A DNA stretch of 64,000 nucleotides from Euglena gracilis (taxonomy: Eukaryota). Location of the stretch: positions 11,650,716 through 11,714,715 of the forward strand of contig CP154954.1 in the NCBI GenBank assembly GCA_039621445.1, given 5' to 3'. The notes below the pieces were generated by a model. It was given only the letters and a program-made list of their open reading frames with translations. It searched no databases and was not told the origin of the DNA. Positions within the stretch are counted from its first letter, which is position 1, and every line of letters starts with the position of its first letter. The translations under genes were made by a program, and so were the position numbers. Shown one piece after another: positions 15,992-56,249 of this stretch.

Positions 15992-16089
<98 letters not shown>

Positions 16090-17699: not shown

Positions 17700-20600
17700 T
17701 CCGGGGATCCCCGTGGGCGGGAACGGAACTGTGGAGAGAATGGGGTTTGGGACCGCAGGGAATGAGTGGCGCACGGCGGTTAACGGCGGGGGTCAGCTCT
17801 CTCTCGCCTCTCGCACTCTGATGGTGGCCGTTTGTGGGGCCGTGTTCTCTGCAGCCTGCTGCAATGGGATACACTCGCGCCGACGAGCTCCCTGTTGACA
17901 CGTTTTCCTGGGCAGTTGCGGGCACAGAGATTCACCATCCTTCATAGCTGGTTTGCTATCGCAGCCAACTGCATCCAGCATCAAATGAAACTGCCTTGCT
18001 GGAGGTTAACAGCTCCGACGTTTTGAATCTGAAATTCGGGGTTTTGGGGATAATTTTCAGGTAAAAAAATTCACTGCCATCTGGCGCGTTGCACCGTCAG
18101 CGCCGTAAACTCGATAATTCTTACCTCTGGATTTTCGCTCGGTCGGCCCAGGAGATTAGTATACTCTGGGGGGGGGGGTCTAACCTTGGGGGGGTTAAGC
18201 CCACAAACCGTGGCTGAAGGGGTCTGGGGAAGGATGGATATTGATATTGGGTTTAGGTGGGGTCCCGATAAATTTGGATAGATTGACACCCCGATATCCT
18301 CGATAAAAGTCGATAAAACTGATATGACCACTTTGTGCCCCGATATCCTAATTTTTCTGATTTGGAGAATCCTAAAAACGCCCCAAAAAAACAAACCAGC
18401 AGAACCCCCCCCCAATAAAGCCAACATTTCACAATATTTTTTCGGGACCTGATAAATTCAAGATCGTCAATAAGGCTGATGATATGGGCCGATATCCAAT
18501 ACCCATCCTTGGTCCGGGAGGCGAATAAGACAATCTGCGTCGCGGAGGCTGCAACTTCGAGGCACGAGTGGTGCCAGGCACGGTGGCCGGGGACAGTCAC
18601 GAGGGGAGGGTGGAGGGGGTCGGCAAGGGGTCGGTAATTACATCATGCGGCAGTCGAGGTTGTGACCTCGCGCAGGCCAAGCCCACCTCCCCCGGATGTC
18701 ATAAACCCATCAAACCCGTCAATCCAGACAGCTGACATTTTACCAAAAATAAATAAATAAAAATGACTAAAGACTCCCACACTTAAATTAGAAAAATATG
18801 CTGCATGAAATTTGGAGGAAAAAACCGAAAATAAAACGCCTGCAAAATAAATGCAAAAGACCTTCGTATTTATTCACATTTTTTTCTGGTGGGAAAACTA
18901 AGGTACAGAATGATCCTTTTCTAATGAAATGCACATGGGTAATGAACAGTGCATCAGATCATCGAACTCCGAAGTTATGAAAAGAATGGAATATGTACCA
19001 GGAAAATGCTGTCCACAAATATGAAAAGAATATGCCCAGAAAAATAGTGCAAGATATGTTGCAGAATTTTGAAGTTTTTGTCAATCATTGCCTCATGGAT
19101 AATGGGCTGAACTCCCTGGAGAAATGCGAGATATTCTTCGATCAAGAAGTCGGCCCTCAGGGCTTCTCATGCATTTCTATCAACCTCCGGTCAGACCATT
19201 GGGGGAGGGGGGGTCAGCCAGTGGCTTATCTCCAGGTGTCCCTGCCTCTCCTCCCCCAGGTCTGAAACAGAAGCCCAGACCCCCACGCCAACATGCACCC
19301 TCCCAAAGGTGCGCCCCTTCAAAACCCCTCCCCCCTCCTCCACTCTGGTCCAGTCGGGTGTTTTGGGCCGCCGGTGGCCGATGCCGTCAGGCTGGTCTGG
19401 TGGGGGGGGGCACACTGGGAAAACTTGTTCCAGGTCATTGCAAGGGATGGGGCCCAATTCAGGTCATGGTGACTGGTGTGCCGGATTTGCCGGATTTGCT
19501 GGAATTGCCGAATTTGCCAGATTTTGCTGGATTTTGCCGGATTTGTAGGAGATCAGGAATAATTTAGGCTCCATTGGGCAGAAAAAGAGGCCGGAAAACC
19601 TTTCGAACCAAACTGCCAGCCAAACCTCATCCCTAAATCGGCCCAATCTTCGGTTCGCCAATCCTAATTTTAACCCCTTTCCTAACAATAAGCACGCACC
19701 CTCCCAGAACCCAACAAAAGTCGACCAAAAATCTGGCAAATTCCCGGGGGCCGTGGAACCCCCCAAAAATGGGAAACACGTCGCGACTGCCCCCCCCCAC
19801 CCGGTAAATGACCAACGACCCCTCGGGTGTGGGGGGGGGGGTTGCCGCTCGGCATAAAACCTTCTTGAAACAACAGCACTTTTTCTCGAACGGGAAAACA
19901 CCAGAAAACTTCTTAAGATAAGCCACAATGGCACTCCCACCCTCCTGTTGTCCCACTAACCTGCTCCCCGGAACCGGATCAGACAATAAGGGGGGGGGGG
20001 ACAATAATGGATAATTGGACCAGACAAAAAAAACCTTCCGTCGGCAGGGACCCAGGGACAATAAGGGGGGGAGGAGTGGTAATTGACACAGCTGGGGGAC
20101 CTCACTGTGACAGTTTTCAAGCAAAAATATTTTCTTGAAAAATAGGAGAGGTCACCGCCAGAGGTCTTGTACACAAATGGCTTGTCTGTGGCATAACCGT
20201 TGGCGCGTTGGTGCTGCTGGCCAAAGGTCATCAGCAGGGTTCAATATTTAAGGTGGGGGGGTCAAAACCCCGCCTCCGGTCAAGGAAGGGGTGGGGACAG
20301 TCGGTCTAAGTGACTGTTTTTTGAGAAAAATTTTGCCTCCAAAAATCGTCCAAAAAAGCTATTTTGGCAAAAACTTGCCAAAATGAAAAAAAAAAACTAT
20401 CAGCACAAAAAATGTGAGATTTTTGGAGGCGGTCCCGGGTACCTAATCCAAATCCCCTTCCGGTTCACGGGGAACCCCCCCCCTCTAACCCATCCACCAT
20501 ATTATACCAAACCCTGGTCATCAGCTGAGACACCAGATCCACCACCGTGCCCTTCGCAAATAATTCTGCGCCAGAATGGGCACCGCCAGCATTTTGATAA

Positions 20601-20954
20601 GCATCAATCAAAATTGAGAAACATCTTGGGGTGATGCAGTTTAATAGAGAATTAAAAAACGCACTGGTGACAGAACAGGGGAAAAGATAAAAGGTGCGTG
20701 CATGCATGTGTGTGCATGCATACATACATGCACATGCACAAACATGTGCATATACATACACATACACAGACATATGCACATATACATATACATACATATA
20801 TCCTATATACATATACATATACATATACATGTGCAGAGACATATACATATACATACAGATACATATACAGACATATACATATACAGAGACATATACATAG
20901 ACATATACAGAGACATATACATAGACAGAGACATACAGACATATACATATACAG

Positions 20955-21031
<77 letters not shown>

Positions 21032-21090
21032 CAAACATATACATATACATATACTATACATATACATATACACATACATATACATATACA

Positions 21091-21374
21091 TGGCAGCCAT
21101 AATCTACATGCCCCCCCCGGGGGGGCCATGTAGATTATCCAGGGGGTCAAAATAGTTTTTTTTTTCGTTAATGATGGAATAGGGTTAGGTGCGCGACTTA
21201 GGGTTAGGGTTAGGCCTAACTTATAGACGGGTGTTCCGTACAAGTTAGACCTAACCCTAAGCCTAAGTCGCGCACCTAACCTTATCCCATCATTACCTCA
21301 AAAAAAAGGCCCCCCCCCTGGAAACACTCCATGCCCCCCCGGGGGGGGGGGGGGCATGTAGATTATGGCTGCCA
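21091..21374. mobile_element. TTAGGG-containing palindromic MITE
   Basis: Perfect TIR tggcagccataatctacatgcccccccc / ggggggggcatgtagattatggctgcca; internal ttagggttagggttagg; inserted in (TACATA)n. Confidence 0.85.
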
Positions 21375-21382
21375 TATACATG

Positions 21383-21449
<67 letters not shown>

Positions 21450-21589
21450 GCATGTGCATATGCATATACATATACATGTAAACCCCCAAACATAAAGCCC
21501 CAAATATATATGTATGTATATACACATATACATATACATATACAGATACAGAGACAGAGACAGAGACAGATATACATATACATATACAG

Positions 21590-21661
<72 letters not shown>

Positions 21662-21675
21662 CATATACATATACA

Positions 21676-21954
21676 TGGCAGCCCGAAACTACTGGCCCCC
21701 CCGGGGGGGCCCAGTAGTTAATCCGGGGGGTCAAAATAATTTTTTTGCGTTAATGATGGAATAGGGTTAGGTGCGCGACTTAGGCTTATGGTTAGGCCTA
21801 ACTTGTACACCGAACACCCGTCTATAAATTAGGCCTAACCCTAACCCTAAGTCGCGCACCTAACCCTATTCCATCATTAACGCAAAAAACTATTTTGACC
21901 CCCTGGATAATCTACATGGCCCCCCCCGGGGGGGCCAGTAGTTTCGGGCTGCCA
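21676..21954. mobile_element. TTAGGG-containing palindromic MITE
   Basis: Perfect TIR tggcagcccgaaactactggccccccc / gggggggccagtagtttcgggctgcca; internal cctaaccctaaccctaa; inserted in (TACATA)n. Confidence 0.85.
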
Positions 21955-22009
21955 TATACATATACATATACATCATATACATATACACATACATGTACAT
22001 ATACATATT

Positions 22010-22078
<69 letters not shown>

Positions 22079-22749
22079 CATATACATATACACATACATG
22101 TACATATACATATTCATAAACATATACATATGCATATGCACATAAATATGCATGTAAACTCCCAAATATAAAGCCCCCACCCAGGCTTTACATTTGGACG
22201 GAATTTCAAGACCCTCAGCGGGGGCTTAAAATGGGGGGGGGGGCTTCATATTCGGGGGAGGAAATCAAACTTTTGCGGGTGGCCTCTATGACCTTCAGCA
22301 GCTTTCAATTGTGGCCAAATACCAATTTTATGCCAAATTTTCGTTGTGTACTTCCTATTTTTCGCAGAAATGTGCAATTCTTCTCCAAAACGGAGCATTT
22401 CCGGTGAAAAAAAAGTTGTATCCACCCAAAATTTTCCACTTTTAGTGAAGAACACAAGTGTCTGGCTCCACGTCAGGGGGGAGGGGGAGCTTTATATTTG
22501 GGCGGCAAAACAAAACCCCCTTGGAGGGGGTTTATATTGTTGGGGGGCGGGGGCTTTACATTTGGGGGTTACATACGGCAATATGATCGCAACGGCAACA
22601 AAAGAATGAGGATATTATACGGTCTGATAATTGATGGGCAAAAGGAAAATCCACAGGCAAGGAATGGTCCAAATCAAACTAAATTCATAAAAACATGTCA
22701 TGTGGTGGTATGCTTTTGGGGAACGAAAACGAGTACCGGGAAAAAATGA

Positions 22750-23670
22750 AGGACGGGGCCGCATCCTGCCTGTGGGCCTCCAGGAGGCCCGGGGCGGGGT
22801 ACTTGGTGCGGAGGGCGGAGAGGTTGGCGAGGCAGAAGGGGTGGGTGTTGAACACCTTGGAGCAGGTCCCTGCCATGCCACTGCTGACAGCCGCAGCCAA
22901 AAACCCCCTGCCCGATATGATATATACAAGATATATGTATGTATGTAAATATCCATGTGCACATACATATTTATCATACATATGATATATTCCATTTATG
23001 CATATTCTATCATATATATCTCATATTGTACATATCATATCATATCATATCATATCATATCATATCATATCATATCATATCATATCATATCATATCATAT
23101 CATATCATATCATATCATATCATATCACACCATATCATATCACATCGTATCATATCATATGGTATCATATCATATCATGTCACATCATATCATATATATA
23201 ATATGTACAGAAAACACAAAAAGACAGAATTTTAGCCCCGGGGGAGACCAAAATCCTCAAGGAGGCCACACTCTCAAGGGAAAATTCGGTCCAAAATGCA
23301 AAAATTCTCAAGGTGGGTGAGTATCTCAGCAGAATTCTAAAATTGCCCCCCAAAAGACATAAAAAAAGCAAAAATAAACCCCCCGCAAACTTTGCCAAAT
23401 TTTTTTAAAAAAATAGGAAAGAAACAGGGAGGATGCGCTCCCCCCTGGGCACCCTAAAGGCTTGGTGGCTCATGCAATGAAGCACGGTCTCCACCTCCAC
23501 CTGGAGATCCTGAGGCCTGCAAAAACAAAAGTCAAGGTAGGAAAGCACAAAAGCAGAACTGTCACAACCCAAAAGGAAAACCCCCAAAGGCATCATTTTC
23601 ACAAAACCAGGCGGCCTTATAGAGGAGATAGAGGAGATAAACAGCACCCTTCAGAGTCACGCATACGCAA

Positions 23671-23701
<31 letters not shown>

Positions 23702-25722
23702 CACCACACAAGTACACATGTGCACACGTACAAGCACCTTCGGTCAACCACCCCTTTGGGCCCCGCATCGCCCTGCATCGCCCTGCATCGCCCTAACCCC
23801 CCCCAATTAGAAGCCCCCCGGGGCTACTATTCGGTCACTCTGCGGAAAACCCGAGGGGGGGGGGGCTTCTAATTGGGTACCCTTTGTTTAAAGGAAAAAC
23901 TTCGGCCGGCGGTCGATCCGGGGATCGAACGGGGTCCAAGTTTAAAAAATTGCAAGACACATTTATTCTAGTTTTTGGGTGGATAGGCCCCAAATAACAC
24001 CCCCCCCCCCAAATAGAAGCCCCCCCCCCTCAGGTTTCCCGCCAAAAATCCAAATAACAGCCCCCCCCCCCCGGCGAAGCCGGGGGGAAATTTGACGAAA
24101 AAATTTCCGAAAAATGGTGAAAAACTCGAAAATTTTCCACGAAAAAAGGTCGACATTGGGAACAAAAGTGATATCTAGTATCCTTGAAACATTGCCTATA
24201 ACCGAAGACCAAAGTTCCTAGCCCGAACCTCAGGCAACCCCCAGGCAACCTTACAGTCAACCACCAGGCAACCATCAGGCACATCCACACAAAATCCTCG
24301 TTGCTCACACTTTGCATCGGCCACACTACAAAAGAGCATGCAGCACACAGGGAATACCTCCCAGTTTCATGTCTTGGGAAGTCCTCCATTTTTCCAGCTG
24401 TTTGTCTGAGGCCACCAGATATTCTTCAACCATTTTTCCTGAGTCCGTTTTTTTTTTGCACATCCTTTCCCACAGCAGCTCAGGAGGTAATTTCCTTGAT
24501 GGACCCTCAAATGCACCGCGTCTGGGCTTGGCAGCTGTCCTGCCGTTCCCATGGTGGAGGCAGGAAGAGTAACGGCACAGAGTCAGTCACGGTGAGGTGA
24601 AGGTTAGTGTCAGGGTCAAGGTGACAGCACTGTCAATGACAGTGTCACTGGGCCTCTGCCCTCTCGAGCTTGTCCAAACACCCCTGGCACACTGCCACGC
24701 GGGTGGGGGGCAGGGCATCCATCGGCTGCAGCCGTTTGCTGTACACAAAGCGGCATGCGACTCGTGTAGGAATCAGGCACACAAATACAGCAGGGGCACT
24801 GGAAGGGTACTGCAAACACAACCACCTCACCCTCCAGCACCCGCAGCTCCTCCAGCCGGTCCCACCGCTGCCTCTCCAGCAGCAGCAACCACTGCCGGTC
24901 GTGCTTCTCCCGACCACGCAGCTTCCTCCACTGAAGGAGAGGACGCTGGTCAGCAAAGGCTTTTGGGGGTCACACTCACCGGGGGTCCCGCTTCTTGGCC
25001 TCCAGCCAAACTTCCTCGACATCCAACTCGCGACTTTGTGTATTAAATTCGCGGCTCGTTGGATGCCAATCCTTCCAAAGGCGCAGTATGCGCACCCCTA
25101 CAAGCATCCTCGGATTCACATGCCCTAAAAACATCCACGGATGCACATGATCATGCACATGCCTACAACCGCCACTACAGTCGCCCGTTTATCCCACAAC
25201 TTAAGATTCCCCCCATAACCTCCCTCTCCCACGGGAGCATCCACTCCAGGGAGTCACTCAGGGAAGGCCAGACGAGCCAGGGAGGAACATCGTCGACTCA
25301 GGTACGAAGCAAGCACCAATGTGGAGGCTGTACGCAGGTATGCAGCAGGGGCACGATACCTTCGGCTCCAGGGGAGTCACACACCTCCCGGAGGGGGACA
25401 GAGAGGTCCAGCACGGCAGCAGAGGCAGAGGCACGGGCAGACATAAAGGGCAGGCTGGAGTGGTCTGCGGGGGAGGGAGGGACGAGACAACAGAGGTGTA
25501 CCCAGCAGTATGGGCCCAAATATGGACCCCACTTCAGCCATCCAAAATCCCCGCATCCAAAAAATCCAAAAAAAATCCCCGCATCGCCCTGCATCGCCCT
25601 GCATCGCCCTGCATCGGAACCCCACCTTTGGCCTCCAAAATTCCCGCATCGCCCTGCATCGCCCTGCATCGCCCTGCATCGCCCTGCATCGCCGAAGGTG
25701 CTTGCACACGTACACACACACG

Positions 25723-25789
<67 letters not shown>

Positions 25790-26255
25790 GCATAGACACA
25801 ATTCATGCGCGCATACAGGCTCATGCATACGCAAACACGCACACACCCAAACACGCCCGCACGCACATGCACACACACACACATAGACAGACACACAACA
25901 GAACACAGCTTTGCCAGACTGCTTTTGACTGATATTGAAAGGAGGGGTGAGCCTTGGTGAGGACGTTTACAAGAGGTAGGAGGGCAATGAGTCAGGCAGG
26001 AGGGAAATGGGTCAGTTCTGCCAGAGTGCCTCGATGGCGTGCCCAGGTGCGTTTGGCACGCGCTTTACCCCATTCCGGTGGTGATTTGCCTCATTTAAAA
26101 ATGAACCCGACTCAAACTCACAAACGAACATGAACGACGCACACAAAGCACACCAACGTCAACAAAACACATTGCAGACAACACCTACACCCACACACAC
26201 ACCCACACCCACACCCACACATACACATACACCCACACCCACCCACCCACCCACC

Positions 26256-26342
<87 letters not shown>

Positions 26343-29300
26343 CTCTCCACCAAATCGTAGCATGTGATGACAGGGACAATGGTGATGCCCTGGGCCTTCG
26401 CCTGGCGGGCAACGGCGGCGGCGAGGCGGTAGGCGAACGCGGCGCCGAAGGCGTGGACGTACACCACGGCGTCCACCTTCAGAGGCACTTGCGGCACCAC
26501 GTACGCGTCGTACCTGGGGGAGGGAGGCAAACCCATTGCGGCACGCCGGCCGCGAACGGAACAGCTGCGGCACGGTGCGAGACGAGTGCGACGTGCTATC
26601 CGCGCGTTTCCGCAACTGACGAATGCCGGTCTGGATGTCCAGCGTCTTGTCGTTTGCGTGTCTTTAACAATTCACACCACACACCATTTGGGATTGTTCA
26701 TACTGTGATTGGGCTTGAACTTCCCCCTCCCAACAAATCATCGGTGGCACGCTTCTGTTCATCGGTCACATTTTGTTTTCCAGGCTGAGGATGGCGTGAA
26801 CAACTTGGCCACCGCCCCTTTTTTGTTTAATGAGTTATTCCTGTGTCAGGATGTTTGAAGGCAAATCCTTGTTATAAGTGGCACACATCATTGTGTGCAA
26901 TTTTGATGACTGTTGTGGGGAAACAAAACTTTTTTGGGTGGCCTCCAAATGCGTTCGCTACCTTATTCGAATTTGTTTGTGTACCATCCAAATTTCCCGA
27001 AATTGTCATTTTTCCCAACATGAAACACTTCTGCGAAAAATTGTATCATCCATCCAAAAAAAAAACACCAACATGTTTTGCCCTCCTCCCGCGGGGCTAA
27101 TAATGGGGGGGGTGGCTTGTTGTTTGGGGACAAAACCAGGAAATTGGGCGGCTAAATACTTATGTATCTACTATATATGTATGTATATATATATATATAT
27201 ATATCTATATCTATATCTATATCTATATCTATATCTATATCTATATGTATACTATGTATACTATGTATACTATATATGTATGTATATATACTTCCATGAA
27301 ATCAACTGTAAATTTGACCATTTATCACAGCCAGTGTGTCTTCGTCTTGCAATTACACATAAAATATCTACCGTGCCAGACTGTCATAGTTGAAATGCAC
27401 CAGCCAAATCATGGTTGAAATGCAGCAACTGGCCAGGCTCGGCAACGCCGAATGCACAGCCCGGCCAAACAGCAGCATGGCCGGCATCGGCCAGGCCCTT
27501 GGTGTCGAACAGGTTGAGCGGGGCGGCGCCCTCCTGGCAGAGCAGGTCGCACAGCGCGTACCGGACCGTCTTGGAGGCGTCCCCGGCGCCCTGGAGAAGG
27601 AAGTCCACGAGGCACCTGGCCGAGATTTGCCACGTCGAAGCGCCGAAACAGAGCGACGTGGGGTGTTGCCTGCCCCACACCCGGAGAACCCGGAGAAACC
27701 ATCACCTGAGAAGTCAGCCAGTGGCAACAAGCCGGGGTGCCAAAAAACTCCCGCAGAGCCCTGGTGGAGACCAGTTTTGTGACCCGGGGGGTGAGCACCT
27801 ATCCACCAAGCCCGGGAGCACAGAGAGGCCAGCCCGCCAAAAAAAATGGGGTCATCTGGAGGCGTTTCCCAAAAAAATGTTCGGTGATTTGTGTGAAACC
27901 CATACCTCGGGCCCCGGGGGGTCTAGCCCCAGATGCCCCTCCACCAATTGGCACCACCAAGAAAAGCCCCAAATAGCCCCGCTACGGAAAACCTCTTTCC
28001 AACCACATCTTACACTACCGACTAGTGTCAATTGTTTTCATTTGTCACCTGGACCCCCTGTCACGTTGGAAAGTCCAAACCAGGATTCTTTTTGACCCCC
28101 CCCCGGGAAGACCCGGGGGGGGGGACTGAGTTGGGGCACACAGTGTTGTATATTGTTTGGGAGGGCTTGATTCCTGGAAATAATCCCATACTGTTCAAAA
28201 TTTTCAAATTCTGCTCGCGAATTTTGGCCTATGCCGTAATGGACAGGAGTCATCATTTGTCTCAAAAAAGGCAGCACACGAGTATAATTGAACTGTTCAA
28301 TAATGGTTCAGATCTTTTTAAACTATGTACTCTGATCAGATTGCACTGTTGACTGAACAACACAGCTGTGGCTTGCGTGCACGCATGCGTGCATGCGTGC
28401 GCGCAGGTGTGTCTCAAGGCTGGACAAGGAGGGGCGCCACCTCGTCACATAATCGGGCAGAGCTGCCAGTGAGAGTCTGGTAAATACTATTGATGAGGCT
28501 GGACTTGCCATTGCCTTGCCGGCCGAACAGCACACAATTCACCTGCGGGGATGGTTGCCTTGGAGTGGTTTTGAACAGCTTGGCTGGGAAATTTCGACAG
28601 CAGTTGTTGTGGCTCCCTTGCCAGTACGGACAGTTCACTCAAATAAAAGGCCAATTGAAACAGAAAAAAAACAGGGAACAAAATGAGCACCCGTTCAGAA
28701 CGAAAGAGAGGGGTGGGGAAGCCACAAAGAGTCGCACAGCGCTGTGCACCTGTCTGGTGGAGCTTTTGGGGAAGGCCTGTTTCAAGCGATCGAGGCTGCG
28801 CTGCAGTCGATCCTTGTCCAGCTGGTGGGAGGGTCCCGGCCAGGCTGTTTTTTTACCAACCTCGGGGGGGGGGTCCGGAGTGCCTGTGAGTGCCTGCCCA
28901 GGCAGGCACCCCCCCCCCCCCGAGGTGGGGTCGGCACCTGACTAAACTACAGCCTGGCCCCGGCTCGGCTGGGCCGGCCATGCAACTCGGCCGGGCCCCC
29001 CCTGCAAAGGGAGGTCCGGACTGCCCCTCCCAGGCGTCTGGTCACCAACCCCAAGGTGGAGGGGTGGGGTGGGGTGGGGTGCCTGCTCATAACAGGCCCC
29101 CCTAACATAACAGGCCCCTCTAACATAACAGGCCCCTCTAACATAACACTAAGGCTTCTTTTCTGTTTATGGCCGGGGCTAACTTCTCTGGCGGCCCAGC
29201 TTGCTGTGTGGTGAGTGGCCAGGCCCCCCCTACCCCCCCCCGGGCAGGCACCCCCCCCCCCCCGGGGGGTTCAAAAGCCGGCCGATTCAGCCCATTGATC

Positions 29301-32300
29301 CTTGCCCATGGCCATTGCCGGCACTCAAGGGGATGCTACACATATCCACCTACCGCAAAACCCGACCCCATGTGTCTTCCGACCCCTCCCCCTGTTGGCC
29401 CATACCCCCCCTGGGGAAGGGAGGTGCGAACTTCCTGGCCCCAGCACAGTTTCAGAGAGCCCCGAGGGCTTCTGCCAGGAGTTTTTTAAGACCGGGGTGG
29501 AGCGGGTTCCGACCCCCCCCCACCCCCCACCCCCCCCCGGTGGGGGCCCCCCAGGGGGGCCAGGGACACTGAATTTTCCCCGAAAATGGCCAAAAAATCG
29601 CATAAATGCTAAAAATAGCACTGTTTTCAAAAAATTTCGGCGCCTTTGGTGCCGAAAAGTATAACCCACTCCCCCCTGGGGGGAATCCCCCCGGGGGGGG
29701 GGGGGGGGGGCTCGGCCGGACCCATCCACCCTCCCCCCTCTCCCCCCCAGGGGTCCACGACTAAAAAAAAACACCTGGCTTCTGCATGCCTGCAACAGCA
29801 GCATTTATCCAATTTTGAGATGGGGTCCTGTGGTCCTCACCAGTTGGTGAATCCCGGCCGTGCCAACGTCGATGCCTCGCTCAGGGGGGTCCCGCCCCGA
29901 CCTCCCGGGTGGCCACGCGCTCCGCGGGCGGCGCGGGGGCGGCCGCCCCGACCCGTGGGTACTCCACGGTGGTGTTCAGGTCTGTCGGCAGCGTACAGTC
30001 CAGGCCTGCAACAATACCGAAACACACTCAACACACAACACAACACAATACAACACAACACAACACAACACAACACAAACACGCAACACGCAACACACAC
30101 AACATATATTTTTGTTGGGGTGGCATACCTTTGTGTGTACACATGGTTACGTGTTATGTGTCCATGCACACACACACAACACATGAAAAAATACACAAAC
30201 ACACATATATTGGAGGGGGCATGCAATCGGGGCCACATCGAATGCAAAGAACGGGCACACTGTCAGTCAGAGTAAGCTCCTCGCCCGTGTGGCCCTCGCG
30301 CAAATCGACGGCGACCTGCCGGTAGGGGCGGCGGGGCGGTGGGGGGCTGACGTGCACCGGCACAAAGGTGGTCCGCTGCAGCGTGGCGCATGGCAGCGCT
30401 GCCAGAGGCAGGCCACCGGCACAGACAGCGCGAGGTCAGGAGTCCCATGCACGTGAAACTTGGAAACAAAAAACATCGACTGCTCTTTTTTCCAGCATGC
30501 CGAAAAGGGAGGGCAGGCAATGCAAAAAAAAACAACTTTGTGGACTGGGAGTAAAAAGTTAAAAATCAGGTGAGCTGTGTGAAGTACGCCATTCACCACC
30601 TCAGGATGAAGCCCAAAAGCCTGGTTCAAATTTTGATTAGATCTTCACAGCCGAAAGGAGACGAGAACACTCACTGGCGTCACTGGGCTTTATTCTAGCA
30701 CACTATTTCACAATAACCCACTCAAAATTCCACAAAACGGGATGAGGAGCCTGTAAATGTGCGTCCAGCATTCAGAGCACAAGTTCACTTGGCATGTATT
30801 CACTTCTATTCACTTGCTGCCCAGGGGGTTTTCCATCTGGTGACCCAGGGAGGCGGCACCTGGACTCATCCACCCTAAAACATTCAAAAAACATTATTGC
30901 CCCGATCACCAGCAAGCTGGACCAGGGGAGTGGGAATCCGACAACCCAAACGCACCCACTCACGCTCAAAACCCCGCCCACACAGAGACTGGGTCCGTGG
31001 CTTGGCGACCATGTGGAAGCATCTGTGGGCCGAGGGTCTGCCCTGCGCGTGGTCAGCGTCGCGCTGTCGATGGTGGACGGCAGGTCGGTGAGGGTGGCCG
31101 CGTCCGCGGTCTTCCGCGCCGGGACCTCGGCCGCCGGGGGATGGCGAGGAGGGGAGAATGGCACGCCCGGGGGCAGGCTGCCCGGCACCGTTTCGCACTG
31201 GGGAACGTCGAGCTGACCTGAGGAGGGCGGCGAGGGGCAAATGCAGGAGTTTTGACTGTCCCCGGGTGACTGCTTGTTTGCTGTGTGGTATTTCTGGTAA
31301 AAGAGCATGAGAGCTCCAATGCTCCCAGTAAGTATTCCTTAACAAAATGTTGACTTTCCGTGAACTGCAGAATGCGCAAACTGCCTTTCTACTGTGTCTT
31401 GTCCCAATAATAGTCTTTGACCCAAACTGCCTTTATAGGTAGTTTCTCACGCCACTTGCAAAGAGAACAGGAGGAACATGTGGCACAGATGATATTGAAC
31501 TCGAAAAGTATGCCATCCTCTCATCCATGATACCAAGTGCTTCTCAGAACGCTCCTTGTCAGGGTTTGACAAAAACATTGTGGGGAAGGGTCTGGACTCC
31601 CTAATGCAGGGGTGGTCAGCCACATATAAAGCAATTTTTCGCCCAGGTGCACAACTTTTCAGTTTGAAAGAAATTGCCAAGAAATCAGTCAAAAAAACCA
31701 ACCTTGGGGCACAGAAAACTATCCACAAGAAGCAATGGAAGAAACTTCAAAATTGTGATGGAGCACAGGAAAGAGTGGTCTAGGGTCTGGCGGAGCCCCA
31801 ACCTGAACCCCAATCAGACACCTTACTCATGGAACCCTTGACCATACCGTTGCATAGCGACCTCCCAGGGGGAGGGGGGGTCACTTTCCACTCTGAAAAA
31901 ACCAGTCAATCCTTTTCCCAAAAACCAGTCAGTCACTTTACCCCCCCCCCCCGGGGGGATCGGCCATTCTTGAATGATGAGGAGGAGGCAATGAGCATTT
32001 GCCAAAAAGTCTCAAAAAATCCAAAAAAAATCCGGCGCCTTCAGCGCCAGGCCAGTCACTTTTTCTTTTTCGAGCCTACCCCACCCCCCCGGGGGGGGGG
32101 GGGTTCTTGGCCAGAAAACCAGTCAGTCACTCTGAAAAAAACCAGTCAGTCACCCCCCTTAGTTGCACGAAGGCTTCTTGTCTGTTTATGGCCGGCGCTA
32201 ACTTGGCTTCTGGCCCAGTTTGCTGTGTGGTGAGTGGCCAGGGACCCCTTACACCAGCACTCTTTTGTTGCTCCGCCTGGCCGGGTGAGTAACTCTGGTG

Positions 32301-32527
32301 TAATTCCAGCGCTGTAGGGGCATACACTCACCTTGTGTGGTTGGTGTGGTTCCCAGTCACCCCCCAGGGGGGTGGGGTGGGGTGGGACAGGTGTTAAGCA
32401 ATTGTATGCCCTTGACCCAGGACCCTGGCCCAACCACACCGATGGACTGCAGGACGGAGCCGTCGTCGTACCGGGTGGAGCACGAGGAGCTGGAGCTGAT
32501 GGAGAAGAGGTCCTCGTCCTCCTCCAT
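22750..32527 (-). CDS. IFI44-like P-loop GTPase domain protein with low-complexity N-terminus, multi-exon
   Basis: Exons 32527-32440, 31217-31049, from 30431, 28835-28750, 28542-28441 ([24 protein letters not shown] = Walker A/G1), from 27590 ([11 protein letters not shown]...NLFDTKGL = G2/G3), 26513-26343 (VDAVVYV...[12 protein letters not shown]4-like). GT-AG phases are compatible across the GTPase core. Family assigned by motif recognition, not by search. 3' end and possible upstream exons at ~34613-34800 are uncertain. Confidence 0.7.
25581..25693. repeat. 10-bp tandem repeat (gcatcgccct)n
   Basis: Two clusters here and a third at 23765-23794. Confidence 0.85.
28841..28956. mobile_element. 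116-bp family B MITE inside an exon = putative nonconventional intron 28836-28959
   Basis: TIR caggctgt/acagcctg; TSD gtcccggc/gccccggc (7/8); removal yields [36 protein letters not shown], in frame with the P-loop exon. Confidence 0.8.
29476..29777. mobile_element. Young family A MITE = putative nonconventional intron 29471-29780
   Basis: caggagttttttaag...aaaaaaaacacctg; exact 8-bp TSD gcttctgc (29468-29475, 29778-29785); lies 9 nt downstream (minus strand) of a TTGCAG acceptor. Confidence 0.8.
30432..31048 (-). other. Nonconventional intron retaining an 8-bp TSD
   Basis: Minus strand ACCAC|GCG-CAG...CTG-ACCTC|GCG; flanks cgcgaggt (30429-30436) / cgcgtggt (31046-31053) match 7/8; frame stays open on removal. 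Confidence 0.7.
31843..32408. mobile_element. hAT-like MITE, family D (CAT...ATG ends), inside a GT-AG intron
   Basis: cataccgttgcata / taagcaattgtatg; exact 8-bp TSD cccttgac (31835-31842, 32409-32416). Confidence 0.8.
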
Positions 32528-34321
32528 CGCGCCGAGGGCCCGGGGCTCCAGGGGCCTGCACAGCGAAGGACCGAGGGGGCGGAGCTTGGGCTGAATGAGA
32601 GGGCCCAGTGGGGATTCTCTCCCCCTGCAAACACACAAGCACACACAAGCACACACACGCACACACGCACACACACACACACCCACACACACACACACAC
32701 ACAGGCGCACACGCACGCACATGAACGCCCATACACACACACACACACACACCATGCTTGTGCTTGCCAACTGGGGGGAGGGGGGTGGGTGCTATAGGGT
32801 GCCTGCCCCTAGCAGGCACACCCCCCCCCCGGGGGGATAGGGGTCCGGGGGGGGGACCCAGAAAATTTTCATTGAAAATGGCCTTTTCCGGACCCCCGGC
32901 GCCAGGGTCGGAGGGGGGTGCCTGCTAGGGGCAGGCACCCCCCAAAACCCTACCCCCCGGGGTATCGGGGATCGGATCGGGTGCTATGGGATGCTTGCCT
33001 AGCACCCCCCCCGTGGGGTAGGCACCCGACTAAGCCCCGATATAGTTCTCAAAAAAAAATCATTTTTTTCACCACGCGAAAACTGTGGAATGATGTCACA
33101 CAAAAATAAGTGGAACGGAGGGTAGTCGCTCAGCCCCTCTAGTTGGTCTCCCTCACGAATGGGGACCTCATTTGGAGGGGCGGGGGCAGGTCGGCAGGGG
33201 GTGCGATTCTATTTGGTCCCCACCTGTGTAGTTTTTTTGTTGATTTCCTCCCCATCGAAAAGGGAGGTACGCTTGTCGTAGACCCCGCGCTTGTGGCGGT
33301 CCCGTTCTTCCAACTTTTCCCCTTCAAATTTCCACTTGCTGAGAAAGTGTCAAATTTTGAGAAGAATTTGTTAGATGACAGGTCATCGAGTACAGAGATA
33401 GATGCTGAGGCGGAAGTCCACTACCTAGCCCTTGAAAATGAGGTCCCTCATCTTTTTCGCTTTCAAAATCCGTTCTCGGTGAGAAAAAGTCGAAATTTCG
33501 ATAAAAATACAGAGAAAGGTGACAGGTTCTATGGTGATAGGTCGGTGAGGATTTTGCTGGAGGTATTTGTACCATTTTGGCCACCAAATTTGTGGAACCA
33601 ATCTTATCTCTCTTCCCCATCCACAACGATAGCAGCTGTCTTCGTCTCTTAGTCAACTCATTTGTCGGTTGCAGAAATTGGCGACTTCCGGAAAAGAAAA
33701 AAACAGCAGGGGAAATCCCATCTATCCAAACAGGTACCTTTTCAGTGTGCACACTTAATGGGGCTCGGGAAGTCCTCCAGCAATGCTTTTTGAGGTGTCC
33801 GTGGAAAGTACAGCGTAGAGGCAGTCCTCTGCGGACATCTCTTTGAGACCATGGGGTTGCTGGGCTGGAGCTAGAGATTTGGGCTGGTTTGGCTCCCCAG
33901 GGGGGACGGGGAGGGTGGCGGCTGCTGGATGCTGGGCCAAAGGTAGGCTGGACTTCGGAATCCCACGTTGCACAAATGCCAAAAAAAAAAACCTCTTTCA
34001 AACACACAAACAACCATCTCAAAAAAAAGAACGCGCCAACACCAAGACCCCCAAACCACCATTTTTTGAAAAAATTCTCAGCCGCACTTTGCAGAGGGAG
34101 GGCTGGCCACTTGGGCTAACTTATGGGTCGTGGGTCCGACCCCCCACCTCCTGGGTGGATGACCCTCCCACCAGGCTTTCCCGTGCAGCCCAGGTGTTTC
34201 CCCCTGGGGGGGGGGGGACAACTGATGACAGTACCGAATTCAACCCGACCCAAGCAGAGACCCCCCAAGGGGGGGTGGCATTGATAATGGCAGGATTCCC
34301 GCACAGCCCTGGGGCCGCAAT

Positions 34322-34609
34322 CAGGGGCATTTTTAAGATGGTGGGGGTCCCCCCCCCACCCACCCCCTGGGGGGGGACCCAGGGGGGGTCCCAGGGGACC
34401 CACTCCATTTCCCCCGAAAATGGCCAAAAATCGCGAAAATGCCAAAAATAGCACCTTTTTCAAAAAAAATTTGGCGCCTTCGGCCTCGAAAGTATCCCAC
34501 CCCCCCTGGGGGGACCCCCCAGGCAGCCGGGGGGGGGGGGGGCTCGGCCGGACCCACCCACACTACCCCCCCCCTCCCCCCTGGGGTCCACGCCTAGGGG
34601 GAACCCCTG
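34322..34609. mobile_element. Family A MITE abutting a GC-rich exon-like block
   Basis: caggggc...acccctg; TSD gccgcaat/gccgcaac (7/8). Confidence 0.75.
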
Positions 34610-35106
34610 GCCGCAACAGAGAGGTCTGGCCTCCTGGGGGACCGGCGCCGCGGCGGGCGGCTCGCCGGGCGGTGGGGGGGGGTGGGGGGGCTGGGCCCCA
34701 GCGTTGGCGGCCGGCGCGGGACTGGGGGCCGCCCTGCAGTCGGCGGGGAAGAGGGCGGGCGGCATACGCGCAGGGCGGAAAACAGACGTCCGTGAAAGAG
34801 GGCAGAAGTCGACGGCCGGTTTGATCCAGCAGCCCCGTGCAATTGCCCCCCCCCTTCTGCACACAGGCGGGCAAGTATTACGAAGCCCATGGCCAACCCC
34901 AAAGGTGCACCACAGGATTACTACTATGTTAGAAGCGCCGAAATTTATTTGGACCCCCCCGAAACGCCAAAACTGCCCATTTTTGGCCATTTTTAGGGTT
35001 TTTAGACCAAAATCAGCCAAAAACACATTAAAACCTCATTTCCACCTCCGCGCACAGCACCGGAAGAAAATTTGTTCCAGTCGGGAGGACCCCCAACGCC
35101 CCCCCT

Positions 35107-35142
<36 letters not shown>

Positions 35143-35218
35143 CGCCAGTCCATTTTTTCCAGTGTCCAGCAAAATGGCTAGCTCATGGACCCCCGGGGTC
35201 CTTAAGCAATAGCCTGGT

Positions 35219-35356
<138 letters not shown>

Positions 35357-38155
35357 CCACCGGGACCCCAGCGGCGCCCAGCCTCCACGCGGCGGGAGGG
35401 GGACAACGTGCCGAAGGCACGGCCAACCGGGCAAAATTTCTGGGAGGAGGTGGACACCCCCACCTGAGCTTTTGCCCCCCCCACCAAACTCCTGATTTTC
35501 CCCCCCACTTTACCCTCCCTGGCTTCTGGCGAAGGACAGCCTGTTGGCTGGCACAGACTTATTGGCTGCATCCAACACCCCCATTTGACAAGGAACGTGG
35601 TCACTCCACCCTCCACGAGCCCAAACATCTGGAGGCAGCAGTCGTCACCTACGGCTGTGGGCCGCAGGGCAACACAGGCCACAAGGCAGAAGGCCTTCCA
35701 CCCCAACCCCTGACAGAGGCCACTGGCTCGAGAGCCAATGCCGGAGTGAAGACAACTCCACATGTGTTGGGTGTTGAACCCAGTGTTGGCACCCAAAGCA
35801 ACAGCGTATGCTGCACAAGTTGCTGGTGCGGACAGGATCGCCCTGTTCCCGGACCGGCACGCGCCGTGCCGGAATTTGTAAGGGTTGGTACCCAACCCTC
35901 AATAATAAGTAGAACCTGGGGGGTTTTTGACTTCCCTTTGATCTTCACGTCTGGCACGCATCTGACCAGAACGCCGACCTCACGAGGTACCCCCCCCCCT
36001 GGCCTCCCCCCAATCTCATACTAGCAATCCCCTCTGGCCCCCGCACCAAATGCGAGCGCCCTCCCCTGGAGGGATATCCCAGCAAGCCCATGTCCAAGCA
36101 GAGAGCCACCGGTACTAATCATCACAGGCCTACCCCGCCCCTCCCCGGTGTCCACTACTGGGTGAACCAGATCAGGTCGAGGGGCCTCCTCCTGAATTGT
36201 TGTGAAAAATAAGAGCGACACTCTCATAACCACCCTCAGCCTTAGCAATATTTTTTCACAACCCTCTGCCCCCCCCAATATCTAAGGGGGTGTGCTAGCC
36301 ACATAACCCCGCCTCCAACCCCTGTCAGACCTCCTGCTGCGGTGGACATGGTAGCCACCCTGACCCCTCACGGGGACCCCGTCCTGCACTTCTGCAAGTA
36401 CCCAAAACATCATGTCCCCCAGACGCAGCAGCTCCGCCTGGACCATCATCTCACAGGCGGAGGTGGCCAAACCCCATCTGGGCCGATTGATTGCAAGGTG
36501 ACCTATTGAACATTCCGGCCACAGGCGATTAACCGATCAAAATATTATCCCATGTTCCTCTCAGATTTTATTATTTATCGATTATACCGAATCAACAGGC
36601 CCATAAAGGATCATTTCAGCGGATGGGGTCTTGTTGTTTCTAAAATTTGACACCATTTTCACGTTTCAGCAACGTGTACATCAACCTCAGCTACTCTAAG
36701 AGACTCCGGCAGTTAGAAGATTATTCTGCATGTTTCTGACTGGCTAAAAATCCTTTCCTGATGATACCTCGAATTGGGTGGAACCTAGGTCATTGTAGCC
36801 AATGGTGTGGTGAGACAAAATAGCCATCTGGTGACCCATGCTCTCTGTGACTCATGATGTGTTTTCCCATTAATTATAATTTGAGTGCCCCGATTAACGT
36901 ATCGTGGGGTATGCCGGGCACATACTCCGTCTCCAGCACCTGCTCCCATTCTGGCTGTGGTGGACATGGTCGCCACCCTGACCCCTCACGGGGTCCCAGC
37001 CTTGCTCTTCTGCATGGATCCCGGACATCTAGATCCAGCAAACCCCACCAAACCCTTCCCATACAGGTGGCGGTACCCAATCCCCACCTGGTCCCGAATC
37101 ACCTGCTGATCGAGTTTAGTAGGGTGCATGAAGTGTGAGCCACACACCCACCCACCCACACACACACGCACACACACACACACACACACACACTTAATTT
37201 CTCTTAATGCACGAAAAGTTGTGGCACCACAACCACTGTGCCAACGGTAGGTTGGCAGTGTGCTATGTTGGCAGGGCTCTATTAATCACACCCGTGTCCC
37301 CAATCCCCTAGTCAGCAAGACATCCCAGGCTGCAAGGACAGCGACCTGGGGGGCTGGCAACACCCACAGAAAAGACGGGGGGACCTCTGAGCACCGAGTG
37401 ACCTTGGGCGACCACAACAAACCATGGGATGGTTGGAGAAGTCAAATTGCATCTGCCCGCCCAACCAGGGTCACCCCAACCCAGTAACACCGGGAAGCCA
37501 AACAAGTTGGGCAAGCGCGTCTTGTGGAGGAGAAAGAGGGGTGGTGTGGTATTTGAGCAGTTCTGTGTTCTAGTGGTAAAGGAGGAGGGAAAGTGTATTT
37601 CACTGGCTAAAATCGCGAGAGAGGGAGAGAGAGTGAGTGAGAGAGAAAGATACACCTTCCCAACAACCAACTCGACCACCAACCACCCGACAGGAAGGCC
37701 CAAGGGCGACAGAAGCGTCAGGAGCAAAGGCCGATGGGTCTTCTGAGATCAGCCCCAACTCCACCGGTCGGGGCGAACCGCACCGGGCAACCACGACCGC
37801 CACGCGGCCCAACAACCAGCTCCCCACCCTTCCCAATTTTCCATGTGAGAAAGAGAGAGAGAGAGAGCGTGAAGCTGGATGGTCATGTACGCAACCCCAG
37901 ACAGACCTGCGACACCCCAGTTACCCTAAAGGAACCATGTTTAGGGCAATGTTATATTAACTGTTAGGTGGTTTACACACCACCATGCTGAATAGGGTGT
38001 GCTACCCCCTCAGTCCTCCCCCCCGGTCAGCCTGCAGTGTGGGTGAGCTCCCAGGTGCGCAGCCCCTCGGATCATCAATACGCACTGCACCCAAAAATGC
38101 CCTCCCCAGGGAAACAACCCGCCTCCTTCCCTGAGACATCCTGACCTTATGGTTG

Positions 38156-41100: not shown

Positions 41101-41198
41101 AACGGTTCGGCAACACAGGGGATGTTGTTATTTTGGGGCCCTGGAACAGTTGAGCAGCAAAAGGAATTCGCTTCCGAAACGGTTCGGCAACACAGACA
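38156..41198. repeat. 77-bp tandem satellite, ~39.5 copies, with higher-order structure
   Basis: Monomer cagcaaaaggaattcgcttccaaaacggttcggca(a/g)cacaggggattttgttattttggggccctgggacagttg(a/t)g; ORF track repeats with a 77-nt period. Confidence 0.97.
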
Positions 41199-41215
41199 CT
41201 TATGGTTGACATTTA

Positions 41216-41500
41216 GGCTCCCATTCTGCGGTAACCTGGCTGCTTTCCCGTGACACCCTGACTTCGAATCTGCAGCATCCCGGCTCCTTCCCGCGACATC
41301 CCGGCTCCTTTCCGCAACACCCTGGCTCCTTTCCGCGTCATCCTTGCTCCTACTTCACGACACCTTGGCTCCAACCCGCAACACCCTGGCTCCCTCCCTC
41401 GACATCCTGGCTCCCCGTCAGTGGCATGACGGCCTCTGCTCTGCAACATCCCGGCACCCACCCCGCGACACCCTGGCTCCCACCCCGCGACACCTTCATC
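41216..41500. repeat. Degenerate 21-bp minisatellite (ggctccttcccgcgacatccc)
   Basis: Roughly a dozen degenerate units; a related unit precedes the satellite at ~38120-38142. Confidence 0.8.
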
Positions 41501-42439
41501 CCACAACGCCCCCATCATCAGCATCACATGGCCGCTTCACAAAATGTCGAACAATCCCAGTTCTGGGGCGTCTATTTTTACACCAATTTGCCAAAATTTG
41601 CCAAATATAGCAAATCTTGGCAATTACTCGCCTTTTTTTGGGCTTCCTCCAAATATGTGCTGGGAAATTACTTTCAACTTAGAAATTTTTGCATGTTTCT
41701 GTTTTGATTATTTGCTTTCCTTTTTTTGGAATTTTTACCCAAGGAATTCCAATATTTCCAGAATCAGCATGACCCCCAAAAAACACGCTTTTGGATCATT
41801 TGGTTTTTTTTAAAAAAAATAGTAGTTAACGGCTCAGAATTTACACCTAAATTCCTTAAATGACCAAGATATGTGTGATTTCTCCAATTCCCCTTCAGCA
41901 GAAGTGGATTAATACCTGAAACCGCATTTTCCGCAATTTCCGCAATTTCCGCATTTTTTCCAAAGGCCTCCGACACAAACCCCCCCCCCCTTGCACTGGC
42001 ACGGGGAGTTCAAAGCTGGTTGAATTGTCTGGTCTGAGCTGTGGCTGCCAGCCCGCAATTGGTTATGGAGGACACACCCTGGACTTGGACCAAAGGTTTT
42101 TCGCCTATTTTGCGCATGGTCTGCCGAAATTCTCCACATCCAAACTTGACCTTTCCTGTCCCCGCGACACCCCCTCGCTCTCAGGCCCTGGTTCATTGCA
42201 TTTTCTCAAAGTGTTCGGCCCTGAGGCTCAGCTATAGTGTGCTATAGTGCTATAGTGTCCATTGGCGGGTTGTTGATCTTGAAGGGTACAGCAGTCCTCT
42301 TGCCCTTTTCAGAACGAGAAAAATCATTTGTGATTAGTTCCATTCTCCTCTCTTCTGGATTGAGAGCTTCTTTAGAGTAATGTGATGGTTTAAACCTCAG
42401 GGTTGCCTGGGGTTGCTGGCATCTGCTCCACCCTAACAG

Positions 42440-48780
<6,341 letters not shown>

Positions 48781-48802
48781 CCCCCAGGCCATAGGCAGGC
48801 CA

Positions 48803-48996
<194 letters not shown>

Positions 48997-49057
48997 CGCG
49001 CACGTGCAAGAGAATCAAATTAGACCTGTGGGTCAAATCGATACGCTTGTCGACCAC

Positions 49058-56168: not shown

Positions 56169-56249
<81 letters not shown>

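What the first reader, a model, noticed from the sequence alone, without database searches (positions are those of the whole stretch)
28833..31053. Transposons becoming introns: 8-bp TSD = 3 nt + 5 nt of the nonconventional splice geometry
Seen: three CAG...CTG-bounded inserts in this stretch of the GTPase gene are flanked by 8-bp direct repeats: 29476-29777 (8/8), 28841-28956 (7/8) and 30437-31045 (7/8). A fourth (34322-34609, 7/8) abuts an exon-like block. Established: hAT transposons make 8-bp TSDs and often start CAG/TAG, and euglenid nonconventional introns carry CAG at +4..+6 and CTG at -8..-6. Inference: cutting 3 nt before and 5 nt after the TIRs removes element + exactly 8 nt, so any such MITE, in either orientation, would be excised from RNA without a scar. 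The window shows an age series: recognisable MITE with perfect TSD, then TSD mismatched in the intronic part, then MITE body without TSD (11850-12115), then terminal stem only (15506-16357, 58028-58987). A transposon origin for these introns has been suggested before; the notable point here is that several families with different sequences appear to feed one splicing route, which could act as a transposon-tolerance system.
Basis: partly seen in the sequence, partly recalled or inferred. Interest (0 to 1): 0.92.

Follow-up and report, generated by a model that had tools for sequence, protein, structure and literature searches.

The report
Transposon copies spliced as Euglena introns

Summary
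A 7/8 match alone is chance level: 68 of 64,984 CAG..CTG pairs show it. It only means something together with good inverted ends (6 of 143 pairs against a control mean of 0.36).

A transcript-derived Euglena protein (EG_transcript_5013) maps to the minus strand, 52109 to 18638. That gives 21 placeable introns, 10 GT-AG and 11 nonconventional. The predictions fared as follows:
- **B:** correct. Intron 13 is 28836-28959, the 116-nt element plus 8 nt.
- **A:** wrong. It lies inside nonconventional intron 12.
- **D:** wrong. It lies inside nonconventional intron 7.
- **C:** half right. The real intron 10 is 30398-31048, and the predicted 3' junction would shift the frame.
20230-20519 is a 282-nt CAGG..CCTG element plus a perfect 8-bp duplication.

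So the 3 + 5 = 8 idea holds for both elements that touch exons. The MITE origin, the "TSD-like" repeats, the N3/N5 code and the tolerance idea are already published. I did not find the explicit equation with an 8-bp TSD.

No RNA reads could be laid. The hAT assignment is plausible but unproven.

The parts
18638..52109 (-). G-domain/P-loop protein gene (EG_transcript_5013): at least 23 exon blocks and 21 placeable introns (10 GT-AG, 11 nonconventional)
   Evidence: The spliced ORF built from the window matches P0001 at 501 of 510 residues (aa 1-510) and 157 of 157 plus the stop (aa 524-680). Pfam gives only weak P-loop hits. The homologue P0005 is named 'G domain-containing protein' by UniRef.
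28836..28959 (-). Intron 13: nonconventional, 124 nt, made of MITE B (28841-28956, 116 nt) plus 8 nt. Flanking repeats are at 28833-28840 and 28957-28964 (7/8).
   Evidence: 11 placements, all 124 nt, none GT-AG. One has CAG at +4..6 and CTG at -8..-6. The downstream exon starts with G. The RNA folds as a hairpin closed by the element ends, z -4.03. Family copies lie at 3193-3702 and 55664-55741.
20230..20519 (-). Intron 21: nonconventional, 290 nt, made of a CAGGGTT..AACCCTG element (20235-20516, 282 nt) plus a perfect 8-bp duplication (20227-20234 and 20517-20524).
   Evidence: Hairpin fold, z -3.04. Homologues show no indel at this site. No second copy in the window.
29476..29777 (.). MITE A (family 1) with a perfect 8-bp duplication GCTTCTGC. 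Nested inside intron 12; not an intron by itself in this transcript.
28987..29897 (-). Intron 12: nonconventional, 911 nt, N3-CGG..CCG-N5 ends. Contains A and other repeat pieces.
30398..31048 (-). Intron 10 (the true 'C'): nonconventional, 651 nt, N3-CAG..CTG-N5. The 5' end is as predicted; the 3' end is 34 nt beyond the prediction. Flanks match 4/8.
33827..34631 (-). Intron 7: nonconventional, 805 nt, N3-CAG..CCG-N5, flanks 5/8. MITE D (34322-34609, family 1, duplication 7/8) sits just inside its 5' stem arm.
58028..58987 (-). Ends are ACC-CAGGCATGTGC..GCACATGCCTG-CTATC; flanks 4/8.
   Evidence: Mapped with an orthologous transcript protein, P0002, so the placement is good to about 1 nt.
3193..3702 (.). 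510-bp element with family-2 (B-like) ends, CGG..CTG termini and a perfect 8-bp duplication GTCCACAG. B looks like a short derivative of it.
1933..2374 (.). MITE-like element, CAGGG..CCCTG ends, duplication 7/8
14318..14566 (.). MITE-like element, CAGG..CCTG ends, duplication 7/8
53287..53748 (.). MITE-like element, CAGGGGATTTCTTAAG ends, duplication 7/8. A second copy lies at 57513-57902 inside an intron of gene 2.
11855..12112 (.). Family-1 copy E with no flanking duplication. Context unknown.

Best explanation
The window is Euglena gracilis-type nuclear DNA. It is littered with short non-autonomous DNA transposons whose ends read CAGG(N2)TTTTTT...CCTG and which duplicate 8 bp of target on insertion.

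Two copies landed directly in coding exons of a G-domain gene: B (intron 13) and the intron-21 element. In the pre-mRNA their inverted ends pair. The nonconventional splicing machinery, whose published rule is to cut 3 nt before the CAG and 5 nt after the CTG with a purine starting the next exon, then removes the element plus 8 nt. That is exactly one copy of the duplication, so the mRNA returns to the pre-insertion sequence.

Other copies (A, D and further families) landed inside introns that already existed and are carried out with them.

Shown here: the element structure, the 8-bp duplications, membership in multi-copy families, and a transcript product lacking element + 8 nt. Inferred: that this allele is spliced rather than the transcript coming from an empty allele; that the duplications come from a transposase; and that the superfamily is hAT.
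For: 1. Transcript evidence. P0001 (eukprot EG_transcript_5013) maps colinearly to the window. With the chosen junctions the window gives an open frame identical at 501 of 510 and 157 of 157 residues plus the stop.
2. Intron 13 is 124 nt (116 + 8) and intron 21 is 290 nt (282 + 8). None of the 11 placements of either intron is GT-AG. Each has one placement with CAG at +4..6, CTG at -8..-6 and G as the first exon base.
3. Both fold as hairpins closed by the element ends, with z -4.03 and -3.04.
4. Homologues P0003-P0005 show no indel at the intron-21 site (SQLM..GQQHQR).
5. Eight elements in 64 kb carry 8-bp flank repeats: three at 8/8 and five at 7/8. They are enriched at offset 0, with 6 of 143 pairs against a control mean of 0.36 and a maximum of 3.
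6. There are multi-copy families with unrelated flanks.
7. Of 18 termini, 18 have C, 17 A, 18 G and 17 G at positions 1-4.
8. The duplications show T at position 2 in 4 of 8 and A at position 7 in 6 of 8, P about 0.0014. This is the nTnnnnAn target consensus reported for the hAT element Hermes (passages of PMC2803484).
9. The published code is N3-CDG..CH'G-N5-6|R, and artificial 50-bp introns built to it are spliced (passages of PMC12501133).
10. A newly gained E. agilis gapC intron has eight-nucleotide direct repeats (passage of PMC4770533).
Against: - No RNA or DNA reads could be laid. The junctions rest on one transcript-derived protein.
- That protein differs from the window at 9 of 510 residues, so it comes from another allele, strain or copy. 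An allele with empty sites would give the same mRNA.
- Junction positions inside the duplication cannot be resolved (11 placements each).
- Only 2 of the 11 nonconventional introns of this gene show a duplication. Four (introns 1, 2, 5 and 22) do not fit N3-CNG..CNG-N5.
- The other nine geometry-fitting introns give only a weak relic signal: 28 of 72 flank positions match against a control mean of 20.1, and 1 of 24 controls reaches 28.
- With a lax end filter there is no flank enrichment.
- No transposase domain was found in the 20 ORFs scanned.
- The intron-21 element has no second copy in the window.
Confidence: 0.75

Rival explanations
1. Empty-allele reading. The transcript behind P0001 comes from an allele or gene copy that never received B and the intron-21 element. 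In the window's allele the elements are not spliced out and the gene is broken.
For: P0001 differs from the window's exons at 9 of 510 residues. Scarless splicing and an empty site give the same mRNA. No reads could be laid.
Against: Both elements meet every published requirement for nonconventional splicing: N3-CAG, a paired stem, CTG-N5 and a purine (passages of PMC12501133). The window's other exon blocks are intact. B's duplication already carries one mismatch, so the insertion is not brand new, yet the frame around it is preserved.
Confidence: 0.1
2. The 8-nt repeats are not transposase target duplications. They are by-products of intron gain through double-strand-break repair, as proposed for the E. 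agilis gapC intron, or of some other non-transposon insertion route.
For: A passage of PMC4770533 reads an 8-nt repeat at a new nonconventional intron this way. No transposase was seen in the window.
Against: The same element bodies recur at unrelated sites, each with its own 8-bp repeat, including sites inside introns (A, D, 3193-3702). The repeat length is 8 in all eight elements. The ends are shared. The target words show the T2/A7 bias of hAT elements.
Confidence: 0.1
3. The elements are real 8-bp-duplicating DNA transposons but belong to a superfamily other than hAT, such as Merlin or P.
For: Two Merlin families with 8-bp duplications are reported in E. gracilis (passages of PMC8101967). 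Two gene-2 introns end in CATG..CATG. No hAT transposase was seen.
Against: All Merlin families start with GG (passage of PMC8101967), whereas 18 of 18 termini here start with C and 17 of 18 read CAGG. The T2/A7 target bias fits hAT.
Confidence: 0.25
4. One reading: each of A, B, C and D is itself cut out at -3/+5 from its CAG..CTG ends.
For: The B junction is confirmed. A and D have the right ends and flanks and could in principle be removed first as nested introns, which a mature-mRNA product cannot show.
Against: The sequences flanking A and D are not exons. The whole of 28987-29897 and of 33827-34631 is absent from the product. C's predicted acceptor would shift the frame, and the real one lies 34 nt away, where the terminal stem is much longer.
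Confidence: 0.05

Closest known systems
Euglenid nonconventional introns (code 5'-N3-CDG..CH'G-N5-6|R; PMC12501133, PMC3935182, PMC4770533)
   Same: Non-GT-AG borders, CAG at +4..6 and CTG at -8..-6, a terminal stem, a purine starting the next exon, and CGG..CCG variants (intron 12). They are mixed with GT-AG introns in one gene.
   Different: Here two such introns can be recognised as transposon copies with intact 8-bp duplications, and one of them (B) belongs to a family with other copies in the window. The passages and sections I read call the origin unclear. They set 'slidable' introns aside, which is the class where such duplications would lie.
hAT-superfamily MITEs (Ac/Ds, hobo, Hermes relatives)
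   Same: 8-bp target duplication, short inverted ends beginning CAG, target words biased to T at position 2 and A at position 7, short non-coding multi-copy elements.
   Different: No autonomous partner or transposase was seen. Position 5 of the terminus is G in only 10 of 18 ends (the YARNG motif is recalled, not taken from a call). Excision here is at the RNA level by a host pathway.
Introners of Micromonas, Aureococcus, dinoflagellates and others (reviewed in PMC11282704)
   Same: DNA transposons that become introns on insertion, with the target duplication forming part of the splice geometry so that removal leaves no scar.
   Different: Introners are removed by the spliceosome at GT-AG-type sites. 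Here no placement gives GT-AG, and the cut positions are measured from a stem.
[quoted passage not shown]
   Same: [quoted passage not shown]
   Different: SOS splicing gives many isoforms with a low in-frame share (passages). The Euglena route uses a fixed 3/5 ruler that equals the duplication length. The factors in Euglena are unknown, and that paper does not mention Euglena (0 occurrences).

Membership tests
Euglenid nonconventional introns | Borders are not GT/GC-AG | tested here: met
   Introns 13 and 21: none of the 11 placements of either is GY-AG.
Euglenid nonconventional introns | CAG (CDG) at +4..+6 and CTG (CH'G) at -8..-6, meaning 3-nt and 5-nt spacers | tested here: met
   Met in one placement for each of introns 10, 13, 20 and 21. 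Introns 7 and 12 carry CAG/CCG and CGG/CCG. Inside the duplications the exact cut cannot be resolved.
Euglenid nonconventional introns | [quoted passage not shown] | tested here: met
   Two-strand folds of the ends. Whole-intron folds with z -4.03 and -3.04.
Euglenid nonconventional introns | Purine as the first base of the downstream exon | tested here: met
   11 of 11 geometry-fitting introns of the two genes.
Euglenid nonconventional introns | Absent from mature mRNA | tested here: met
   Shown through a transcript-derived protein only. No reads were laid, and the transcript may come from another allele.
Euglenid nonconventional introns | Removed without the spliceosome and released as a circle | not testable with these tools
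   Needs RNA experiments.
hAT-type MITEs | 8-bp target site duplication | tested here: met
   Three elements at 8/8 and five at 7/8. Enriched only at offset 0.
hAT-type MITEs | Terminal inverted repeats with a shared terminal motif | tested here: met
   CAGG at 17 of 18 termini, followed by a T-rich run. Family alignment.
hAT-type MITEs | Target consensus nTnnnnAn | tested here: inconclusive
   T2 in 4 of 8 and A7 in 6 of 8, P about 0.0014 from only eight sites. Consensus taken from passages of PMC2803484.
hAT-type MITEs | Multiple copies at unrelated sites | tested here: met
   Family 1 has four to five copies, family 2 has three, and the 53287 family has two. The intron-21 element has a single copy in this window.
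hAT-type MITEs | Autonomous partner encoding a hAT transposase with matching ends | tested here: not met
   No transposase domain in the 20 ORFs scanned. The whole genome is not held, so this says little.
hAT-type MITEs | Presence/absence polymorphism with empty sites | not testable with these tools
Metagenome scans found nothing.
Introners (spliceosomal transposon-introns) | GT-AG-type splice sites supplied by the element and its duplication | tested here: not met
   No GY-AG placement for introns 13 and 21.
Merlin transposons | Inverted ends starting with GG | tested here: not met
   18 of 18 termini start with C. Rule taken from a passage of PMC8101967.

The most novel reading that the evidence does not exclude
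Most euglenid nonconventional introns descend from one superfamily of CAGG-ended DNA transposons that duplicate 8 bp. The 3-nt/5-nt ruler of the nonconventional splicing machinery is tuned to that duplication length, so any such insertion into an exon, in either orientation, is erased from the mRNA without a scar. This would be a precise RNA-level transposon-excision system. It would be the counterpart of animal SOS splicing, and it would explain why about 70% of nonconventional introns are 'slidable'.
Probability: 0.4. Interest if true: 0.8.

Novelty: new member of a known kind. Interest (0 to 1): 0.6.

Why it matters
[quoted passage not shown] This window gives concrete cases. These are transposon copies with intact 8-bp footprints, one of them (B) from a multi-copy family, sitting exactly where nonconventional introns are removed.

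It also suggests why the published spacers are 3 and 5 nt: together they equal the footprint. That turns a long-standing hypothesis into a simple genome-wide test, namely measuring direct-repeat length at the stems, including the 'slidable' introns that were set aside. It also links Euglena to the newly described animal system that cuts transposons out of mRNA.

Tried and rejected
- **The look-up of sequencing runs.** No RNA holder listed. Four RNA raw-read runs of the same species label and six small 'RNA?' runs (share 0.10-0.19) were offered but never laid.
- **Whole genome.** Not held.
- **Earlier findings.** None.
- **Six-frame Pfam scan by reference.** I scanned 20 single ORFs instead and found no domain above cutoff and no transposase.
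- **Metagenome scans.** Nothing for relatives of the gene or for the family-1 core motif.
- **The ORF beside F.** It gave only two weak hits in the representative library (E 7.5e-05 and 5.9e-04). F (15506-16357) therefore stays untested. On the minus strand it has N3-CAG..CTG-N5, but a pyrimidine follows it (read).
- **Gene 2.** It could only be mapped with an orthologue at roughly 70-95% identity per exon. Several of its junctions (introns 2, 5, 6, 8) could not be fitted to the code, and I left them out of the relic count.
- **Relic count.** It used 9 introns, leaving out introns 13 and 21 and all introns that do not fit the geometry.
- **Exon for aa 511-523 of P0001.** Not found in the window.
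- **Rejected: C as a transposon with a duplication.**
- **Rejected: Merlin.** Its ends start with GG.
- **Supplements and figures.** These are closed or not held. Fig. 1B and the SI of PMC12501133 (sliding-distance distribution) may already show or refute an 8-nt peak.

Full report
**What the window is.** No genome is held for it. One candidate exon (30154-30435, minus strand) retrieved a single protein, P0001, 680 aa, named eukprot EG_transcript_5013. By its name this is a transcript-derived Euglena gracilis protein; that reading of the name is mine. P0001 maps colinearly to the minus strand from 52109 to 18638 in at least 23 exon blocks. With the junctions chosen, the window gives an open frame identical to P0001 at 501 of 510 residues (aa 1-510) and at 157 of 157 residues plus the stop (aa 524-680). 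A 13-residue exon (aa 511-523) was not found in the window. Pfam gives only sub-threshold P-loop hits. Homologues include one that UniRef names 'G domain-containing protein'. 'GTPase gene' is therefore a fair label, but I did not test it further.

**The observation.** Chance has to be judged with care.
- Without any demand on the ends, 68 of 64,984 CAG..CTG pairs 40-3000 nt apart have flanks at 7/8 or better. Six shifted controls gave 45 to 802.
- With inverted ends matching at 10/12 or better, 6 of 143 pairs have such flanks, against a mean of 0.36 and a maximum of 3 in 80 shifted controls.
- With a lax 7/10 filter nothing stands out (8 against a mean of 4.44).

A, B and D have real inverted ends and belong to families:
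- A, D, E (true bounds 11855-12112) and a partial copy at 4514-4725 align from CAGG to CCTG.
- B matches both ends of a 510-bp element at 3193-3702, which has a perfect GTCCACAG duplication, and a piece at 55664-55741.
- C is unique in the window.

**The junctions.** I enumerated every donor/acceptor placement that reproduces P0001. This places 21 introns. Ten can be GT-AG (introns 3, 4, 6, 8, 9, 11, 14, 15, 17, 18) and eleven cannot (introns 1, 2, 5, 7, 10, 12, 13, 19, 20, 21, 22).
- **B is intron 13.** A nine-residue exon (CMAGPAEPG) ends at its upstream side and the next exon starts at its downstream side. All 11 placements remove 124 nt (116 + 8).
- **A is not an intron of its own.** The whole of 28987-29897 (911 nt) is missing from the product. 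That larger intron has CGG..CCG ends in the same 3/5 geometry.
- **D is not an intron of its own either.** Intron 7 is 33827-34631 (805 nt) and D's end lies 22 nt inside it. D sits just inside the 5' arm of intron 7's own terminal stem.
- **C is half right.** The donor is as predicted (31048), but the intron runs to 30398, 34 nt past the predicted acceptor. It uses another CTG, where the terminal stem is far longer. The predicted junction would shift the frame.

Intron 21 (20230-20519, 290 nt) is a 282-nt element with CAGGGTT..AACCCTG ends and a perfect 8-bp duplication. Homologues of the protein have no indel at that point, so the removal is exact at the protein level. Both this intron and intron 13 fold as long hairpins closed by the element ends (z -3.04 and -4.03).

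**A second gene.** A second gene lies on the minus strand (63225 to 54004). I mapped it with an orthologous transcript protein, P0002. None of the listed placements of its 11 introns is GT-AG.

**How it fits what is known.**
- The passages I read of PMC12501133 define the nonconventional code by knock-in as N3-CDG..CH'G-N5-6 followed by a purine. They list CGG-CCG variants, state that the origin is unclear, and suspect MITE-like sources and a role in mitigating insertions. They also say that 'slidable' introns with direct repeats were excluded when the motif was derived.
- In this window, all 11 introns that fit the geometry are followed by a purine.
- PMC3935182 proposed the MITE origin.
- PMC11282704 calls the CAG/CTG 'TIR' and the junction repeats 'TSD-like'.
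- PMC4770533 reports eight-nucleotide repeats at a newly gained E. agilis intron but reads them as break repair.

Across seven searches and the passages read, I did not find the explicit statement that 3 + 5 equals an 8-bp target duplication. I also found no named MITE family shown to be a nonconventional intron. Figures and supplements could not be seen.

**Which transposon.** Eight elements in the window carry 8-bp duplications (three at 8/8, five at 7/8), and 17 of 18 termini read CAGG followed by a T-run. The duplicated words have T at position 2 in 4 of 8 and A at position 7 in 6 of 8 (P about 0.0014). That is the nTnnnnAn consensus given for the hAT element Hermes (PMC2803484). Merlin elements with 8-bp duplications exist in E. 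gracilis, but all start with GG (PMC8101967). No transposase domain was found in the 20 ORFs scanned. hAT is the best guess, at about even odds.

**Age series and relics.** For the nine geometry-fitting introns without an obvious duplication, 28 of 72 flank positions match, against a mean of 20.1 in 24 shifted controls, one of which reaches 28. This is suggestive only. E, F and the proposed order of decay remain inference. F could not be tested.

**Main weakness.** No reads could be laid. The transcript comes from a slightly different allele or copy, so an empty-site allele cannot be excluded. I rate that at about 0.1, because both elements meet every requirement of a code that has been shown to suffice for splicing.

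**Closest analogues.** Introners share the scarless use of the duplication but are spliceosomal. Animal SOS splicing shares the stem-triggered, spliceosome-independent removal but is imprecise (PMC12779559).

**Verdict.** The central 3 + 5 = 8 idea is supported by both exon-touching elements. It is a known kind of intron, with new and informative members.

Noticed in passing
window 26728-27483 (minus strand): The 13-residue exon for aa 511-523 of P0001 is conserved in homologues but is not found between its neighbouring exons or anywhere else in the window. The interval holds a microsatellite. The exon may be missing from this assembly or allele, or split into very small pieces.
   Followed up: partly
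window 34734-49025: Intron 6 is a 14.3-kb GT-AG intron. It holds a strongly strand-skewed tandem array of about 3.6 kb at roughly 44.7-48.4 kb (GC skew -0.62 at 46-48 kb; repetitive pseudo-ORFs). It also holds two near-identical segments at 38309-38920 and 40001-40612.
   Followed up: no
window 54004-63225 (minus strand): This is the C-terminal part (aa 385-754 of the orthologue) of a second gene with no Pfam domain. None of the listed placements of its 11 mapped introns is GT-AG.
   Followed up: partly
window 31842-32158, 51587-51900, 63242-63497: A further repeat family has different ends (about CCATACCATTGC..GCAATGGTATGG) and CCAGTCAGTCAC motifs. Two of its three copies lie inside introns (GT-AG intron 9 and nonconventional intron 1). 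The third lies upstream of the first mapped exon of gene 2, in an unknown context. None forms an intron by itself.
   Followed up: partly
window 62672-63155 and 56651-57990 (minus strand): Two introns of the second gene end in CATGGC..GCCATG-type inverted repeats instead of CAG..CTG. One of them has the 3/5 spacing. This may be a second kind of terminus accepted by the same route.
   Followed up: no
window 3193-3702: This 510-bp element has B-like ends and a perfect 8-bp duplication, but its terminus reads CGG rather than CAG. CGG-CTG is one of the end pairs reported in PMC12501133. The 116-bp B looks like an internal-deletion derivative of such an element.
   Followed up: partly
window 34610-34631 (minus strand): MITE D inserted immediately inside the 5' arm of intron 7's terminal stem and left the arm intact. 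Other nonconventional introns also carry nested MITE copies: A in intron 12, a B-like piece in gene-2 intron 10, and a copy of the 53287 family in gene-2 intron 8.
   Followed up: partly
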